A DNA stretch of 41,177 nt from a virus. Taxonomy: Duplodnaviria; Heunggongvirae; Uroviricota; Caudoviricetes. Where the stretch lies: the IMG/VR virus record IMGVR_UViG_2531839369_000042; one strand, written 5' to 3'. Position numbers: made by a program. Shown one piece after another: positions 36,001-41,177 of this stretch (positions are counted from its first letter, which is position 1; each line of letters opens with the position of its first letter).

Positions 36001-39000
36001 CACTTCATACCAGACTGAATCTTCTCTAATTGACCAGGATATTTGGTCATCAGATCTCGAACCTGCTGTCGATCGCCGGACTGGATGGCTGCCGCATATT
36101 CTTTTTGGAATGCAGCATCCGCTTCCTGTTGCTTTGCGGCTTGAGATGTTTGAGCGACACTACCAAGTCCCTGCAACGCCTGAAGGCCGATGTTATTGCG
36201 ACCTGAACGCTCCATTTCGTTGTTCTGGCGAATATAGGCCAACGCCTCACTTACATCACTTGCCTTTGGCGCATTTGAGTTTTGCCCACCGATACCAGCA
36301 AGAAAACCGCCTGAGTTGATTCCTTGTTGCCAAGTAGCCATATTCCCACCTTAAAACAATGATCCAAGACCACCGATAACACCGCCAGCAAGAGCACCAA
36401 TACCAGTCCCAATAACAGGAACTGCACTACCAATCATTGCACCTGATGCGGCCCCACCAATGGCACCTGTAGCAAAACTCTGTAGGCCTGAAGGCTTATT
36501 CGCATTTGCTGCCGATGCTGCCGCCTGCTGTTGATACAATTGGCTGACATTGTTAGCGTAGTTCTGTCCGGCGTTTGCCTGACCTGTAAGAGCACCAAGG
36601 CCGATATTTGCCAGATTGTTGTAGTTGTTCATCTGACCTGACAGCCAGTTTTGACCGAGTGTAGGTGCGATTGCTGCTAACTGGTTTCCTGTTGCTGTAG
36701 AGCCTAATCCACCCGTTGCCTCTGCTGCTGCCAGACTCTGATAGCGCGCCTGCCCTGCAAGGTCTTTATACTGCTGAGAGTTGTAATACTGGTTAAGCGC
36801 CTGACCTTGCCCCTGAAGAGAGGAAAGATTCTGCAACTGTGATACGTACTGCTGAGCGAGTGGCGTGAACGGTGCAAGGTTTTGCATGTTCGTCTGCCAC
36901 ATTTCACGCTGCAGTTCGATGCCCTTTTCAGTTGCGCGTGCCTGGGCTTTAGATCCGGAGTCGCTGCCGCCTTTCATATACCCATTCATGGGAAGCAATT
37001 TATTCTTGAAGCTTTCGCTAAGTACTAACATTTAATAGCTCCTCATATTTCGAACGAGGTAATTGATAGAGGGTGATTCCTACCGGTTTTCCGTTACTCA
37101 TGTACGCATCATCAAGGTGACCAACACGGGTAGCGCCAAGCAAACGGATAATTGCCCGTCCGTATTTGGTGGTGTCAGGAACCATGGTGATGCTGTTAAG
37201 GAATGGTGAGTTTTCGAGAAGCCATTTGCAGAATAATCGATGCCCTTGTAGTGCATATTCGCCACGGAATCCGGGGTCATACACCGCATGGCATTCAACA
37301 ACGCTATGCCAGAAGTTACGCACTTCATGAACTCCAGCCAGCACTAATCCTTCGTAGATGCCGAGATATACCGCATCAGGCTTGATGTAGTATTTATCTC
37401 CACTGTCTACGATATTCCCCGTGTTTACCGGGTTGTTAAGGAATTCTGCAAGTTTCACCGGGTTATCGATGAGCTTTATTTCCATCACTGCTCCGCAATG
37501 ATTTTGATGGTTGTGGCAGTAAACGCCGCGCCATTCGACTGAATGGTTAACGTGCTGCCATTTGTGGCAAGAAAGCCGTCTTTATCCACGCTGAAGAACG
37601 TAGCTAACAGGATGTTGTCGGTTGTTGTTGCCGAGTTGCGACTGCTTACTAGCGTGTCAGGAACAGAACCGGAGAATGTTAGCTGCATTGACCTGTTGGC
37701 GGTTCCGCTGGGCCACGTCCCGACAATCGACAGCTTGAAGAACAAGGTTTTGTTCTCGTTGAACACAACCATCTTGTTGTTAACGGTGTCGAAGAATGGT
37801 GCCAACGTCCCGGATGACGGCGTAAGCGTTTTCAGCAGGCTAACAAGGTTGGTCGGCGCTGTCGGGATGGTTACTGATACGCCAGAGTAAACAACCTCTG
37901 ACTTCTTGCGCGTAGTGGCATACTCCAGAGCATTAATGCGCGTTTCATGGTCTGAAACCTGCGATTCCAGCGACTGAACTCTGGTATCAAGCGATGCAAT
38001 ATCGCTTTCATTCAAGGCAATCAGTGGGTTTACGTCATGGAGTGGGCTCAACACCAGTCAGAGCCGCATGTACACGCAATAATCATGGTGAACGAAAGAA
38101 GCATTAATGGGCAAGCTGGCAAAATTGTCAGCAAATGGGTAACACTGGCAAACAATGCAATCCCATCAAATGTTCCTCCCCAGTGGGATCTAGATTTGAA
38201 AGGTCAGCAATATTCAGAGCCTACAAAGTGTATAGGTAAACAGATTGATTACATGGCAAAGCCCGAAACTAAGTTAAATGACTTTAATAGAGAGGCGAGC
38301 AAGAGCCTATATGATTGGTCAGATGCCAACGTTTGGGGTTATTCGAATGGCTGGGCGCGGCATGAGATAAAAAAAGAAACACTTTCTATCACTGGCTTTC
38401 ATGCTGTAAGACGCATACTAAAAGCCGTTCAGGCATCAAGGAAAGACAACTACAAAGCTAAGCGACAGATACAGCGTACATTGAAACGACAAGACATAAA
38501 TCGATCACCAATCACCCCGTTCCAAGCACCGTTAATTAGCAAACACGATTGGGATTTATCAGTGATAGCGGTCACCAAAGAGGCAGAGACAGAGCGCAGG
38601 GAATTACTATCCTCACAGATAATAAACTCGAACAAAGTACAAACCCACCCACTGTTAAGGATGTTAAGAAGAGCACGAGTGAGAGCATCCAGAGCCAAAA
38701 GAGAAAGCGGAGGTTATGACCATTACTACTAGTAGTGACAGATCGTGACAAGGCGGTGCAAAAAACGACCAATAATAAGAGAGATATGCCTGCCAAACCG
38801 CCAAAAGCGCGGAGCGCGGCAAACGCCGCGAGAGGCGCAAGAAGGCGAACCTATCCATTGAAACGGTCAGAAGCGCATCGCGCTCGACGACCGAAGTCCC
38901 CACTAACACCGTTAACGAAAGATCAAAGTCTTAGAAAAAAATGACGTTTCTTTGATGGACTTCCATCCGTAAAAATCAAATTTTGAGAAAAAGTACTTAT

Positions 39001-41177
39001 AGAAATTAATCGCTCTATAAGGATAAGTTGACGTTAGTTTAAAGTGATAAAACATTAAAGAAAAAACGTAAAATCAAATACATAAAATAAGTCACCAAGG
39101 GATCATTTTCAGAAAACAACGTCAACGTAACGTCAACTCTGTAAGAACTTTTTTGGTCACTTTTTGGGTTGAATGTACGTAAAAATCCCCAGCAGTGAAA
39201 TTTGAGCGCGTAAGCACAATTCTGAGGGGCTTTTTGTCTGTAGGTTAGGCAGTGTAACTAACAATACAAGAAGTTAGCTCTGACTAACTATTTAATTAAC
39301 TTTTCAATCTAATTGCGTTAGATATTATACCCTAACGCAATATTTTTAATTCAATAATGTCTGTAAATTGTTATTACTTATAATTATACATTTAACTATA
39401 TCTACATTGGCTGCTTCCAATTACTACTTACGTAACGGAATCTCGGATCCTCTGTTTTTGGCTCGGTATAATAAGAATCATCAATAGTAAAGTTCGACGC
39501 TAATTTATCCCGAAGCCCACCTAAACGTTCAATGCTTGTTAGTTCGTTAGTAACATCCTTGAAAACGGTAGAAAATGCTTTATGTTGTTTAGACTTCATA
39601 AATTCAGGAGTGCTCAGTGCAAACTCTTTATCAGGCAAACCTGGAATACCCACGAGTCCTGTCAATGAATTTATACATTTTATCAAAAAACTGCCTTGAA
39701 TACCTTGATTTGATGGAACACCGTAGCTTCGTTTAATATCTCCAGATATTTTATCTAAATCACTTAGTAATTTTGTTACTTTTTTATTTCCTGCACTTAT
39801 CCCCGATTCATCGTAGGTCACATGAATCTCTCGGATTACATCTCGACACGTACGAAAATGATCATGTGTTCTAAGCTCTAAAGCTGAATTGATAACTTGA
39901 GAGACATTTCCTGTTTCGTTTGCTAGCCATGCAGAAAATATTGGTAAATCTAATGAAATAGTAGATGTGCGTCCATGATCTACAATTTCAGATCTTGCAG
40001 TACTGATTTTATCAGACAACGATTGCACCAACCTTGCAGTATAATCATGACCAAAAGCACCTGTTTTTTTCATCCAATGCAATTGATATGCATGCCTTAT
40101 TGGATGAATAAATGAGTCTGCTTTAAAATGCTTAGCAATGACGCTGTAATAAATAGATTTATATGCCAACCAATTTAGCGATGCGATAAACATTTCAAGT
40201 GAACGAGTCATACCTCCTTTACCGCGAGTAGATTTTTCCCTTTCTAGTTCAAATTCACGCTCAGTATATTCATGTCCAGATGAACTCACTAGCTTCACAT
40301 CGGTTGACCAGTACCCTTTCGTATCAGAAGCATCTGATAATTCATTAAAAATCGATGCACTTAGTTCACTATATTTCGCATATTCAGGAGTACCGGGCTG
40401 ACCAAGCATTTTCATTGTTAAGTAATACACGCTAGACCGAAGATCCCATGTGCAAATCATATTCAGCTTAAGCATCTCTACAAGTTGCCTAAAATCATCG
40501 TCAACAAACTCCCCACCTCTAATTTCGGAAGTAATTTGCCGAGATTCAACTTGTGCTAACTGATCAAGTTCACTGAGTTGAAAATCACTTTCAGATACAA
40601 ATTTAATAAAGTCAAATTTAGCAATGCGTTTATCTCTATATTCTTTTTTATAATTATCTACACAGATCAGGGTATCGTAAAAAAGTATCGCTTGAATAAG
40701 ATTTTCAAAAGCGACTAAATCTCCGTTAATAGTATCTGGATTCTTAACAAGAATATCACCCAGTGTTCTTTCGACTGCTGTTAACGAAGCATTATCAATC
40801 AACGCATAAGACATTAAACTACCTCCATTAGATAATATCTAATAACATTATATTTCAATTAGGTTTAAAAATTGTGATACTTATGACAGATTTGAGTGAC
40901 ATTTTATCAATCTACTGATTTTGATGGTGAAATTTATTAGAAGGTATGCGTAGTGCTACGGGAGAAATGAGAAACGCGCCCAGCAATGGCGCATCCTTTC
41001 TTAAGCAAGTTGGCTAGTATCTATAGCATCCATCCAATCAGGAGCAATTCCCAAACGTTCCGCGAACTCTTCATTGGTCACGTCTTCCATTGAGAGACTA
41101 GCCAGACAATCGTTAATTTCAGAATAGACGGGGGAAAGTAATAGGTATTCCCGCAACTCTTTCAGGTCTTTTTCCAT

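What the first reader, a model, noticed from the sequence alone, without database searches (positions are those of the whole stretch)
38945..41177. AT-rich terminal segment with an unassigned 470-aa protein, a small upstream gene and iterated GTTGACGTT sites
Base composition drops sharply relative to the prophage. The segment holds a 470-aa protein with no motif I can place, preceded on the same strand by a short ORF that reaches the window edge, and is bordered by an intergenic region containing three copies of GTTGACGTT in inverted and tandem arrangement (operator- or iteron-like). Location at the edge of degraded prophage DNA is typical for horizontally acquired defence or exclusion cargo.
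Basis: partly seen in the sequence, partly recalled or inferred. Interest (0 to 1): 0.6.

Follow-up and report, generated by a model that had tools for sequence, protein, structure and literature searches.

The report
Orphan cargo gene in argW island
The AT-rich end of this E. coli O157:H7 window is the cargo slot of a decayed mobile island, and it holds a stand-alone 470-residue protein of unknown fold that travels between bacteria as an integron cassette and is most likely, but not provably, a new anti-phage defence gene.

Summary
In detail: GC falls to 0.35, a 470-aa ORF (39402-40814, minus) has no recognisable motif, a complete 58-aa ORF lies upstream, and there are three exact GTTGACGTT sites. 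The interpretation needs splitting. The window is E. coli O157:H7 at tRNA-argW. The segment is the distal half of a decayed ~10-kb island (integrase, AlpA, HUH Rep, cargo slot, 58-aa gene, serine recombinase). The GTTGACGTT sites, the 58-aa gene and a 5'-truncated rep gene belong to the island backbone. They are conserved in about 200 other E. coli that lack the 470-aa gene. The sites flank a variable AT-rich spacer just after rep, so they look like origin or oriT iterons, not operators of the 470-aa gene. Only 39274-40934 is lineage-specific cargo. The same slot holds a SIR2-STAND protein or other genes in other strains. The 470-aa protein belongs to a small orphan family with no Pfam, NCBIfam or PADLOC hit. 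Its confident AlphaFold model has no PDB analogue, and no partner gene is conserved. In at least nine taxa it is a one-gene integron cassette with attC. Elsewhere it sits in defence islands. It is probably a new single-gene defence protein; the biochemistry is unknown.

The parts
38014..38732 (+). 5'-truncated rep gene of the island backbone (ORF 38037-38732). It is an HUH-type rolling-circle Rep that keeps the HVHAII motif but lacks the first 54 residues.
   Evidence: 97% identical to residues 55-285 of the intact 285-aa 'rolling circle replication-associated protein' of E. coli 675SK2. The intact protein hits Pfam REP_ORF2-G2P at 7e-07. Nucleotide homology to intact islands starts at 38014. 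The junction sequences were read.
38733..39273 (.). Conserved backbone intergenic region downstream of rep. It is the candidate origin (ori or oriT).
   Evidence: 86-94% identical to L008 and L009 up to 39239/39273, where homology stops. It is shared by 201 E. coli genomes that lack the 470-aa gene.
39027..39137 (.). Three GTTGACGTT sites: 39027-39035 (+), 39118-39126 (-) and 39129-39137 (-). One site faces a tandem pair across an 82-bp spacer of 76% A+T.
   Evidence: These are the only three copies in the window, against 0.36 expected. The tandem pair block is 97% conserved among three islands, while the spacer is only 58% conserved. The arrangement gives no significant single-strand structure (z -0.83). 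The sites are absent next to 470-aa homologues elsewhere.
39274..40934 (-). Cargo slot content specific to the O157:H7/O55:H7 lineage. It is 34% GC and holds a single gene.
   Evidence: Backbone homology to L008 and L009 is lost between 39239/39273 and 40935/40970. GC is 0.342. The slot is filled by other genes in other strains.
39402..40814 (-). Gene for the 470-aa orphan protein (WP_000119352.1). The protein is soluble, with pI 5.9 and no transmembrane segment.
   Evidence: The family forms 315 clusters at 50% identity among 1.84 billion representatives. It has no Pfam, NCBIfam or PADLOC hit. It matches PHROG 13435, 'unknown function'. The AF2 model has pLDDT 82.7 and pTM 0.86 and no PDB analogue.
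39312..39341 (.). Perfect 10-bp inverted repeat with a 10-nt loop, 61 nt downstream of the stop codon. It is part of the mobile gene unit and is followed by no T-run.
   Evidence: Found. The stem is conserved and the loop changed in Dickeya solani. E. coli-Dickeya nucleotide homology runs from 40855 to 39299.
40972..40996 (-). Terminator-like GC hairpin plus T-rich tail after the 58-aa gene. It lies inside the backbone and separates the 58-aa gene from the cargo gene.
   Evidence: Found by the terminator scan. Backbone homology resumes at 40935/40970.
41001..41177 (-). Complete 58-aa backbone gene (WP_000409798.1) of unknown function. It is transcribed divergently from a 208-aa serine recombinase that lies just beyond the window.
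   Evidence: It is conserved next to different cargos (WP_000409799 in L008; WP_001535482 in L009 and L019). It matches PHROG 35119, unknown function. It has only weak HTH-type Pfam hints. It is unrelated to the small ORFs upstream of 470-aa homologues.

Best explanation
The segment is the distal half of a decayed ~10-kb integrative island at tRNA-argW of E. coli O157:H7. Intact relatives of the island are organised as follows: P4-type integrase, AlpA, small HTH genes, an HUH rolling-circle Rep, an intergenic region carrying GTTGACGT(T) sites, a variable cargo slot, a 58-aa gene, and a serine recombinase. In O157 the left half was replaced by a P22/CUS-3-like prophage remnant, and rep is truncated at about 38014.

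SHOWN: the GTTGACGTT sites, the 58-aa gene and rep are island backbone. Only 39274-40934 is lineage-specific cargo. That cargo is one AT-rich gene, with about 120 nt of unshared sequence upstream of its ATG and a 3' hairpin.

INFERRED for the repeats: they are binding iterons of the island's Rep, marking its origin of replication or transfer. One site faces a tandem pair across an easily melted AT-rich spacer. In O157 they are probably relics, because rep is truncated and the integrase half is gone.

SHOWN for the 470-aa protein: it acts without a dedicated partner. No neighbouring gene is conserved across 40 loci. In at least nine taxa it is the only ORF of an integron cassette bounded by attC cores. 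One such cassette is 94-98% identical between Stutzerimonas, Shewanella and Halioxenophilus. Elsewhere the gene sits in defence islands, in a prophage and in a phage-plasmid-like replicon.

INFERRED, about 50%: it is a stand-alone anti-phage defence protein, probably of the abortive-infection or growth-arrest type that is common among single-gene cassette systems.

SPECULATIVE, about 15-20%: the N-terminal alpha/beta domain is a metal-dependent catalytic effector, possibly a nuclease or phosphoesterase. Its invariant or near-invariant residues are D7, R16, D32, E37, D47, D53 and R63. The helical C-terminal two-thirds would act as sensor or oligomerisation module. It includes a 47-residue helix, invariant R240 and R324, and a C-terminal W-K-x-P-M tail conserved in most members.
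For: Locus identity and context.

Backbone versus cargo boundaries. Alternative slot contents are SIR2 + STAND with ThsA-type PADLOC hits, a 330 + 821 aa pair, a ParA-like protein, and an IS-disrupted slot.

Backbone genes: AlpA at 3.6e-18, and Rep REP_ORF2-G2P with a weak relaxase-nuclease hint. Rep truncation.

Repeats: the sites are conserved while the spacer is not. They are not found beside 470-aa homologues elsewhere.

Locus as a defence hotspot: the argW-dsdC interval is defence hotspot #11, 376 of 973 (PMC10121019). It is a known hypervariable site with decaying CUS-3-like phages (PMC9659370).

Family: 233 full-length homologues at 54-85% identity across Gamma- and Betaproteobacteria. 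It forms 315 clusters at 50% identity and is always about 470 aa.

Integron contexts: V. vulnificus superintegron; Stutzerimonas next to intI; Nitrosomonas next to intI fragments; Alteromonas, Shewanella, Halioxenophilus, Syntrophales and Ectothiorhodospira with attC.

Defence-type neighbours: Salmonella has Mrr, CbtA/CbeA, AbiGi and a TerB_N + BrxD-like ATPase + DEAD helicase set. P. moorei has SMC/AAA_23 + MComp1 + CTD4. Pseudomonas spp. have DUF4365-TPR-PIN and ResIII helicases. A sediment contig has Mrr_cat adjacent. A Lit-like Peptidase_U49 cassette lies in the same Vibrio array.

Other points: no conserved partner gene. Absent from 50,697 phage genomes. Cassettes of unknown function are often defence genes, whose non-integron homologues lie near integrases or in prophages (bioRxiv 10.1101/2024.07.02.601686). 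Conserved residues and secondary structure.
Against: There is no homology to any known defence protein. PADLOC-DB v2 gave no hit above noise for any of 75 diverse members. The protein is absent from the supplements of two recent prediction and validation papers that I could search.

Guilt by association is weak evidence. Integrons and hotspots also carry non-defence genes. Several contexts are uninformative: Aeromonas directly after recCBD, Pseudomonas MAC6 after gyrB, and Dickeya between a sulfatase gene and the ars operon. Only one of four alternative slot contents is a recognised defence protein.

Family members are unusually well conserved (54-85% identity across orders), which is not the typical picture for fast-evolving immune genes.

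For the repeats, no binding or nicking data exist.
Confidence: 0.5

Rival explanations
1. One reading: the 58-aa gene, the 470-aa gene and the GTTGACGTT sites form one regulated defence or exclusion operon, with the sites as operators and the small protein as regulator or antitoxin.
For: Both genes are on the same strand and 186 bp apart. The 58-aa protein has faint HTH-like Pfam hints (WYL_3 at 0.011, Sigma70_r4_2 at 0.0098).
Against: The sites lie 3' of the 470-aa gene, not 5'. Both the sites and the 58-aa gene persist next to unrelated cargo in other E. coli. A terminator-like hairpin separates the two genes. 470-aa homologues elsewhere have no related small ORF and no GTTGACGTT sites. In integrons the gene is a one-ORF cassette.
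Confidence: 0.04
2. The 470-aa protein is accessory cargo with a non-defence role. Examples are an enzyme or stress-related function useful in particular niches, an inter-MGE competition factor (anti-plasmid, anti-satellite), or an addiction-type toxin that is kept in check by folding or regulation rather than by a cognate antitoxin.
For: Most integron cassettes are of unknown and varied function. Conservation across orders is high. Some contexts are housekeeping: after gyrB, after recCBD, beside the ars operon. There is no hit to any defence model.
Against: The gene repeatedly sits beside restriction, Abi, SMC-type and TA genes and in a slot that holds SIR2-STAND in other strains. It has no metabolic neighbours in common. 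It has no recognisable enzyme family.
Confidence: 0.35
3. The gene is phage-derived: a prophage moron, superinfection-exclusion gene or anti-defence gene left behind by the decaying P22-like prophage.
For: It lies next to P22-like remnants. It matches a PHROG family (13435) over its full length. One distant homologue lies beside a lambda-type terminase and another beside the recombinase of a phage-plasmid-like replicon.
Against: tblastn found no match in 50,697 deposited phage genomes. The gene lies inside the island's slot, flanked on both sides by island backbone rather than phage DNA. Most homologues are in integrons or chromosomal islands.
Confidence: 0.07
4. The GTTGACGTT sites are not Rep iterons but binding sites of another backbone protein. 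Candidates are the neighbouring serine recombinase (res/hix-like sites), AlpA or the MerR-like HTH proteins, or a host factor. On this reading they serve recombination or transcriptional control.
For: An inverted plus tandem arrangement of 9-mers is also typical of resolvase or repressor sites. A serine recombinase and several HTH proteins are encoded by the island.
Against: No matching site is found on the other side of the slot or near the recombinase gene, so an invertible or excisable segment is not defined. The position directly 3' of rep, with conserved sites flanking a poorly conserved 76% A+T spacer, is the layout expected of an origin.
Confidence: 0.3

Closest known systems
Integron gene cassettes of unknown function (gcu) that encode single-gene anti-phage systems (V. 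cholerae SCI systems such as Belenos, Cernunnos and Sirona; BRiC cassettes of mobile integrons)
   Same: Homologues of the 470-aa gene are one-ORF cassettes bounded by attC cores in Vibrio, Stutzerimonas, Shewanella, Halioxenophilus, Alteromonas, Nitrosomonas, Syntrophales and Ectothiorhodospira. As with those systems, non-integron copies lie near integrases or recombinases in other mobile elements.
   Different: No phenotype has been measured. The E. coli copy has no attC and has about 120 nt of unshared sequence upstream of its ATG. At about 1.5 kb the cassette is larger than I recall being typical for cassettes (own knowledge, not measured here). The family is not among the systems described in the two integron screens I could read.
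Defence hotspots of phage satellites and small integrative islands (P4/P2 hotspots, PICI accessory regions, integrase-only islands of E. coli hotspots)
   Same: A conserved backbone has a single slot whose content differs between strains and includes a SIR2-STAND protein. It is integrated at a tRNA gene that is a documented defence hotspot.
   Different: The backbone has an HUH rolling-circle Rep rather than the primase-helicase of P4 or enterobacterial PICIs. No packaging or capsid-redirecting genes were seen. The element type is not established. In O157 the element is a remnant without integrase or AlpA.
Iteron-type origins placed 3' of the rep gene (for example SaPI/PICI ori: repeats flanking an AT-rich stretch), and double-strand origins or oriT of HUH Rep/relaxase elements
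   Same: Short repeated sites in inverted and tandem order flank an AT-rich spacer about 290-400 bp downstream of rep. The sites are conserved and the spacer is not.
   Different: There are only three copies. No stable hairpin presents a nick site. No biochemical data exist. The comparison with SaPI ori rests on my own knowledge, not on a test here.
PIN-domain (VapC-like) nucleases
   Different: No PIN Pfam family matched any of 75 members. The later acidic residues expected after strands 3 and 4 are not conserved. VapC was not among the top 60 hits of the better model. This is a lead, not a membership.

Membership tests
Integron gene cassette | An attC recombination site (R''...R' cores with an imperfect palindrome) directly downstream of the ORF | tested here: not met
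   Not met for the window copy: no attC-like element lies within 200-230 nt after the stop, only a 30-nt hairpin. Met in homologues L003, L005, L026, L027, L028, L044, L045, L047 and L048. So the family is a cassette family, but the E. coli copy is not currently a cassette.
Integron gene cassette | Location in an array next to an intI integrase | tested here: not met
   Not met for the window: no intI, and the gene lies in an argW island. Met in relatives: intI is adjacent in L005-L007, intI fragments are adjacent in L044 and L045, and an intI-like gene lies 4 kb upstream in L033.
Known anti-phage defence families (PADLOC-DB v2.0.0) | A significant match to a defence-protein HMM | tested here: not met
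   The query had no hit at E<=1. Among 75 diverse members there were only five isolated single-member hits at E 0.003-0.03. Newer catalogues were not available.
Type II toxin-antitoxin module | A conserved adjacent small partner gene | tested here: not met
   No neighbouring gene family is shared across 40 loci. The 58-aa ORF is unrelated to the Dickeya DUF6979 ORF and to the Stutzerimonas 67-aa ORF. It stays with the island backbone when the cargo changes.
PIN-domain nuclease | PIN fold with four conserved acidic residues | tested here: inconclusive
HEPN RNase | An R-x4-6-H motif in a helical bundle, conserved across the family | tested here: not met
   R240-x5-H246 exists in close homologues. 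H246 is not conserved in the diverse alignment, where only R240 is invariant. There was no HEPN Pfam hit.
Phage-inducible chromosomal island / P4-like satellite | Integrase + AlpA-type regulator + replication module with adjacent ori + accessory hotspot | tested here: inconclusive
   Intact relatives (L009, L018, L019) have a P4-type integrase, AlpA, Rep and a variable slot. However, Rep is HUH-type rather than a primase-helicase, and no packaging genes were recognised. The O157 copy lacks integrase and AlpA.
Phage-inducible chromosomal island / P4-like satellite | Induction and packaging by a helper phage | not testable with these tools
   This requires experiments.
Rep-iteron replication origin | Repeated sites next to the rep gene that are conserved among related elements | tested here: met
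   Three GTTGACGTT sites lie 295-405 bp after the rep stop. The GTTGACGT core is kept in L008, L009, L018, L019 and L020 at the same position. The site block is 97% conserved against 58% for the spacer.
Rep-iteron replication origin | Rep binds or nicks the sites, and the region supports replication or transfer | not testable with these tools
   This requires EMSA or nicking assays and replication assays.
   No such homology was found in Pfam, NCBIfam, PHROGs (unknown-function family only), PDB sequences or PDB structures. The gene is absent from phage genomes.

The most novel reading that the evidence does not exclude
The 470-aa protein founds a previously undescribed single-gene immune system with a fold that has no solved analogue. 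It spreads among Proteobacteria as an integron cassette, reaches Bacillota, Verrucomicrobia and Spirochaetes by other vehicles, and is fixed in the O157:H7/O55:H7 lineage. Its N-terminal acidic-cluster domain would then be a new type of effector.
Probability: 0.4. Interest if true: 0.7.

Novelty: new variant of a known kind. Interest (0 to 1): 0.5.

Why it matters
If the 470-aa protein is an immune protein, it adds a new family and probably a new fold to the single-gene defence repertoire. It would also be present, 100% conserved, in essentially every complete O157:H7 genome (317 of 5,426 complete E. coli genomes, all at this locus). That is relevant to phage-based control of this pathogen.

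The family also shows cleanly how one gene can move between vehicles: integron cassette, satellite-like island slot, defence island and phage-plasmid.

Independently of function, the analysis defines a small argW island type (AlpA + HUH Rep + serine recombinase) with a single exchangeable slot. Its other occupants, for example an unannotated 330 + 821 aa pair, are further candidates.

If the protein turns out not to be defensive, it remains a conserved, widely transferred orphan family worth a structure.

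Tried and rejected
(1) Family searches with the single protein and with 43 and 75 members against Pfam, NCBIfam and PADLOC gave nothing above noise.

(2) PDB sequence searches with the protein, the full profile and an N-terminal-domain profile gave only chance-level hits: PCNA at 0.009 over a region the model predicts as helical, and interferon gamma at 0.24.

(4) The idea that the E. coli copy retains an attC was rejected.

(5) The idea that the repeats form a cruciform or structured strand was rejected (z -0.83). 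There were no Rfam hits in 37800-41177.

(6) The idea that the repeats are recombinase sites flanking an invertible segment was rejected, because no partner site lies on the far side.

(7) The HEPN motif R240-x5-H246 was rejected because H246 is not conserved.

(8) Literature look-ups for the accession, in full text and in supplements of DefensePredictor, a language-model defence preprint and the E. coli defence-island paper, found no mention.

(9) The search for related loci with the diverse alignment failed for lack of a conserved stretch. The closer alignment worked.

Full report
WHAT IS THERE

The window is chromosomal DNA of E. coli O157:H7. Positions 38900-41177 are 100% identical to many O157:H7 genomes, for example NZ_CP033605.1 3301068-3303345.

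In that record the gene order is as follows:
- a lambdoid prophage integrase
- tRNA-Arg (argW)
- intS
- P22-like ejection genes
- a tail-needle pseudogene
- a 215-aa hypothetical protein
- the 470-aa hypothetical protein (WP_000119352.1)
- the 58-aa hypothetical protein (WP_000409798.1)
- a 208-aa serine recombinase
- a DUF4942 fragment
- the csc sucrose genes

- GC is 0.353 over 38945-41177, against 0.485 for the first 38 kb.
- The 470-aa ORF is at 39402-40814 on the minus strand.
- The 58-aa ORF is at 41001-41177 on the minus strand. It is complete, because its ATG is the last codon of the window.
- GTTGACGTT occurs exactly three times in the window, all within 111 bp, against 0.36 expected. 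One plus-strand site faces a minus-strand tandem pair across an 82-bp spacer that is 76% A+T.

THE THREE FEATURES DO NOT BELONG TOGETHER

Of 5,426 complete E. coli genomes, 317 carry the whole segment at >=99% identity. These are O157:H7 and O55:H7, always once and always chromosomal. A further 201 genomes match only window 38900 to about 39240-39273, at about 85% identity. That stretch is the part with the GTTGACGTT sites.

In those strains the locus is an intact ~10-kb island inserted at argW. Its features, in order:
- a P4-type tyrosine integrase (Arm-DNA-bind_3, Phage_integrase)
- a 246-aa protein
- AlpA (Pfam 3.6e-18)
- two small proteins, one of them HTH
- a 128-aa protein
- a 285-aa 'rolling circle replication-associated protein' (Pfam REP_ORF2-G2P at 7e-07, with a weak relaxase-nuclease hint)
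- the intergenic region with the repeats
- a variable slot
- the 58-aa gene
- the serine recombinase

Pairwise comparison places the backbone/cargo boundaries in O157 at 39239/39273 on the left and 40935/40970 on the right. The slot content differs between strains:
- an 826-aa SIR2 + STAND NTPase protein with ThsA-type PADLOC hits in strain GPEC1292
- a 330 + 821 aa pair with no hits in 675SK2 and 2020N21-110
- a ParA-family protein
- IS elements plus small genes
- the 470-aa gene in O157

In O157 the island is a remnant. Homology to intact islands begins at window 38014. The rep ORF (38037-38732) is 97% identical to residues 55-285 of the intact Rep and lacks the first 54 residues. The integrase-AlpA half has been replaced by a P22-like remnant. 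Decay of CUS-3-like (P22-like) phages at argW, and the hypervariability of the argW-dsdC interval, are documented (PMC9659370).

THE REPEATS

The GTTGACGT core is kept at the same position in every backbone relative I fetched. The 30-bp block with the tandem pair is 97% conserved among three islands. The AT-rich spacer between the facing sites is only 58% conserved.

The sites are not found beside homologues of the 470-aa gene in any other taxon. There are only scattered single chance matches kilobases away.

As single-stranded DNA the arrangement is no more stable than shuffled sequence (z -0.83). Rfam finds nothing. No partner site lies on the far side of the slot or near the recombinase gene.

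The sites are conserved short repeats facing each other across a fast-evolving, easily melted spacer, 295-405 bp after the rep stop. I therefore read them as Rep-binding iterons of the island's origin. This could be a vegetative origin, or an oriT given the relaxase-like hint. That reading is inference; no binding data exist. In O157, with rep truncated, they are probably relics.

They are not operators of the 470-aa gene. They lie 3' of that gene and outside the cargo.

THE SMALL ORF

The 58-aa gene stays with the backbone when the cargo changes. A terminator-like hairpin at 40972-40996, inside backbone sequence, separates it from the cargo. It has no relationship to the small ORFs that happen to precede 470-aa homologues in Dickeya (DUF6979) or Stutzerimonas. 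Its function is unknown, with only faint HTH-like hints.

THE 470-aa PROTEIN

It is a soluble protein (pI 5.9, no transmembrane segment) of an orphan family.
- A word-indexed search found 233 homologues. The best 120 are 54-85% identical, nearly all of them full-length and about 470 aa. They come from Dickeya, Vibrio, Salmonella, Shewanella, Aeromonas, Pseudomonas, Stutzerimonas, Undibacterium, Chromobacterium and metagenomes. All are 'hypothetical' and none carries a precomputed Pfam domain.
- An exhaustive profile search of 1.84 billion representatives found only 315 clusters. The full-length ones are about 430-490 aa, and no fusions appeared among the 150 best hits listed.
- Among 185,579 species-representative genomes, 32 carry the gene. 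They include Desulfobacterota, Verrucomicrobia and Spirochaetes. A 34%-identical copy lies on a Clostridium kluyveri 58-kb replicon.
- No member of a 75-sequence alignment spanning 20-86% identity hits a Pfam or PADLOC family above noise. PHROGs holds the family as phrog_13435, 'unknown function'.

The invariant or near-invariant residues are D7, R16, G19, D32, E37, L44, F45, D47, Y55, R63, F67, W123, S128, L132, W215, Y223, P238, R240, P291, R324 and G432. A C-terminal W-K-x-P-M tail is conserved in most members, at 60-80% or more per position.

An AlphaFold2 model from the diverse alignment is confident (pLDDT 82.7, pTM 0.86). It shows an N-terminal alternating beta/alpha domain followed by a beta-hairpin, and then a largely helical C-terminal two-thirds with a 47-residue helix.

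HOW THE GENE TRAVELS

No neighbouring gene is conserved across 40 loci, so the protein works without a dedicated partner.

In V. vulnificus it is one cassette of the superintegron, bounded by VVR-type attC sites. In Stutzerimonas it is the second cassette after intI. In two Nitrosomonas genomes it directly follows an intI fragment. In a Syntrophaceae MAG an intI-like gene lies 4 kb upstream.

A simple attC scan plus inspection finds canonical YTATAAC...GCGTTATRY sites starting 0-15 nt after the stop codon in nine loci. The scan has about a 10% false-positive rate on shuffles. Two further hits, L034 and L042, start about 50 nt after the stop and I discount them.

The Stutzerimonas, Shewanella and Halioxenophilus cassettes are 94-98% identical in DNA. 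The homology ends at the attC cores. This is direct evidence of recent integron-mediated transfer between orders.

The enterobacterial copies (E. coli, Dickeya, Salmonella) have lost attC. They share about 15-40 nt upstream of the ATG. E. coli and Dickeya also share about 100 nt downstream, including a hairpin with a conserved stem.

The other contexts are typical of defence islands or lysogeny modules:
- Salmonella: Mrr_cat, CbtA/CbeA, an antirestriction gene, AbiGi, and a TerB_N + BrxD-like ATPase + DEAD helicase set. From memory this set resembles Shango.
- P. moorei: SMC/AAA_23 + MComp1 + CTD4 + a metallo-beta-lactamase-fold protein.
- Several Pseudomonas: a 1,321-aa DUF4365-TPR-PIN protein or a ResIII helicase.
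- A sediment contig: Mrr_cat.
- Undibacterium: VapC/Phd.
- A spirochaete MAG: a GpA terminase.
- C. kluyveri: a large serine recombinase and HTH regulators.

Some contexts say nothing: after recCBD in Aeromonas, after gyrB in Pseudomonas MAC6, and beside the ars operon in Dickeya.

The gene is absent from 50,697 phage genomes.

MOST LIKELY FUNCTION

The yfdC-argW-dsdC interval is hotspot #11 in the E. coli defence-island survey, where 376 of 973 occupied islands carry known systems (PMC10121019). Two integron studies show that cassettes of unknown function frequently encode single-gene anti-phage systems. They also show that the non-integron homologues of those systems lie in prophages or near integrases (bioRxiv 10.1101/2024.07.02.601686; 10.64898/2026.03.17.712381).

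The 470-aa gene fits that pattern on four counts: a one-gene cassette, an exchangeable slot that elsewhere holds SIR2-STAND, defence-type neighbours, and a patchy distribution driven by transfer. I therefore commit to a stand-alone anti-phage defence protein as the best explanation, at about 50%.

The effector chemistry is unknown. My guess, at about 15-20%, is a metal-dependent catalytic N-terminal domain controlled by the helical C-terminal part.

The main rival, at about 35%, is a non-defence accessory or inter-element competition function. A phage-derived moron or anti-defence gene is unlikely (about 7%).

COMPARISON AND NOVELTY

The architecture is of known kinds: a small integrative island with an insulated cargo slot, and a cassette gene that has hopped between vehicles. 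The protein is not a member of any described family, and its predicted fold has no solved analogue. I found no mention of the accession in the literature or in the supplements I could search. I rate it a new variant of a known kind.

Interest is moderate. The context case is coherent and the family is fixed in a major pathogen lineage, but there is no functional evidence and no mechanism.

LIMITS

- Model coordinates could not be inspected.
- The defence models date from 2023.
- The slot census rests on five sampled genomes.
- The attC scan is home-made.

Noticed in passing
window 38014 (junction), 37485-38054 minus-strand ORF versus 38037-38732 plus-strand ORF: The island's rep gene is fused head-on to the P22-like tail-needle pseudogene. 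Homology to intact islands starts at 38014, and the rep ORF lacks its first 54 codons but keeps the HUH motif HVHAII. RefSeq annotates a 215-aa 'hypothetical protein' here rather than a pseudogene.
   Followed up: yes
window 38735-38944 (+): A 69-aa, very basic ORF lies in the GC-rich conserved stretch after rep. Related islands differ here by 1-, 2- and 7-nt indels that break the frame, so it is probably not coding. The stretch contains GCGCGGAGCGCGG-type repeats, whose copy number differs in strain 675SK2.
   Followed up: partly
L009 6624-10078 and L019 7624-11090 (E. coli 675SK2 and 2020N21-110): The same island slot holds a two-gene cargo (330 aa + 821-825 aa) with no Pfam, PHROG or PADLOC hit. 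This is another uncharacterised candidate system.
   Followed up: partly
L012-L014 (Aeromonas hydrophila) 8001-9356: The Aeromonas homologue (451 aa) sits directly after recC-recB-recD on the same strand, about 100 bp after recD. The index lists it in 36 blocks of the collection (24 contigs read). The position next to the RecBCD operon is unexplained.
   Followed up: no
L048 (Ectothiorhodospira shaposhnikovii) 11464-18851: Downstream of the family's cassette, a block of ORFs (99/145/123/457/104/122 aa) is repeated nearly three times in tandem. This looks like a duplicated group of cassettes.
   Followed up: no
L003 4925-5842 (V. vulnificus superintegron): A Peptidase_U49 (Lit-like phage-exclusion protease) ORF lies about 2 kb upstream of the 470-aa cassette in the same array.
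   Followed up: no
NZ_CP040314.1 3923565-3927155 (E. coli MA11, hit H1): One strain carries an IS1203 insertion inside the segment corresponding to window 38900-41177. The exact position was not determined.
   Followed up: no
L057 7007-8008 (P. aeruginosa ~500-kb megaplasmids): A truncated homologue (residues 132-470, 60% identity) lies beside an mphE-msrE-armA resistance region on three megaplasmids.
   Followed up: no
L008 10706-12178 (E. coli GPEC1292): In this strain the island's recombinase is followed by a 263-aa hypothetical protein and a second, pseudogenised recombinase. This suggests tandem or nested copies of the element's right end.
   Followed up: no
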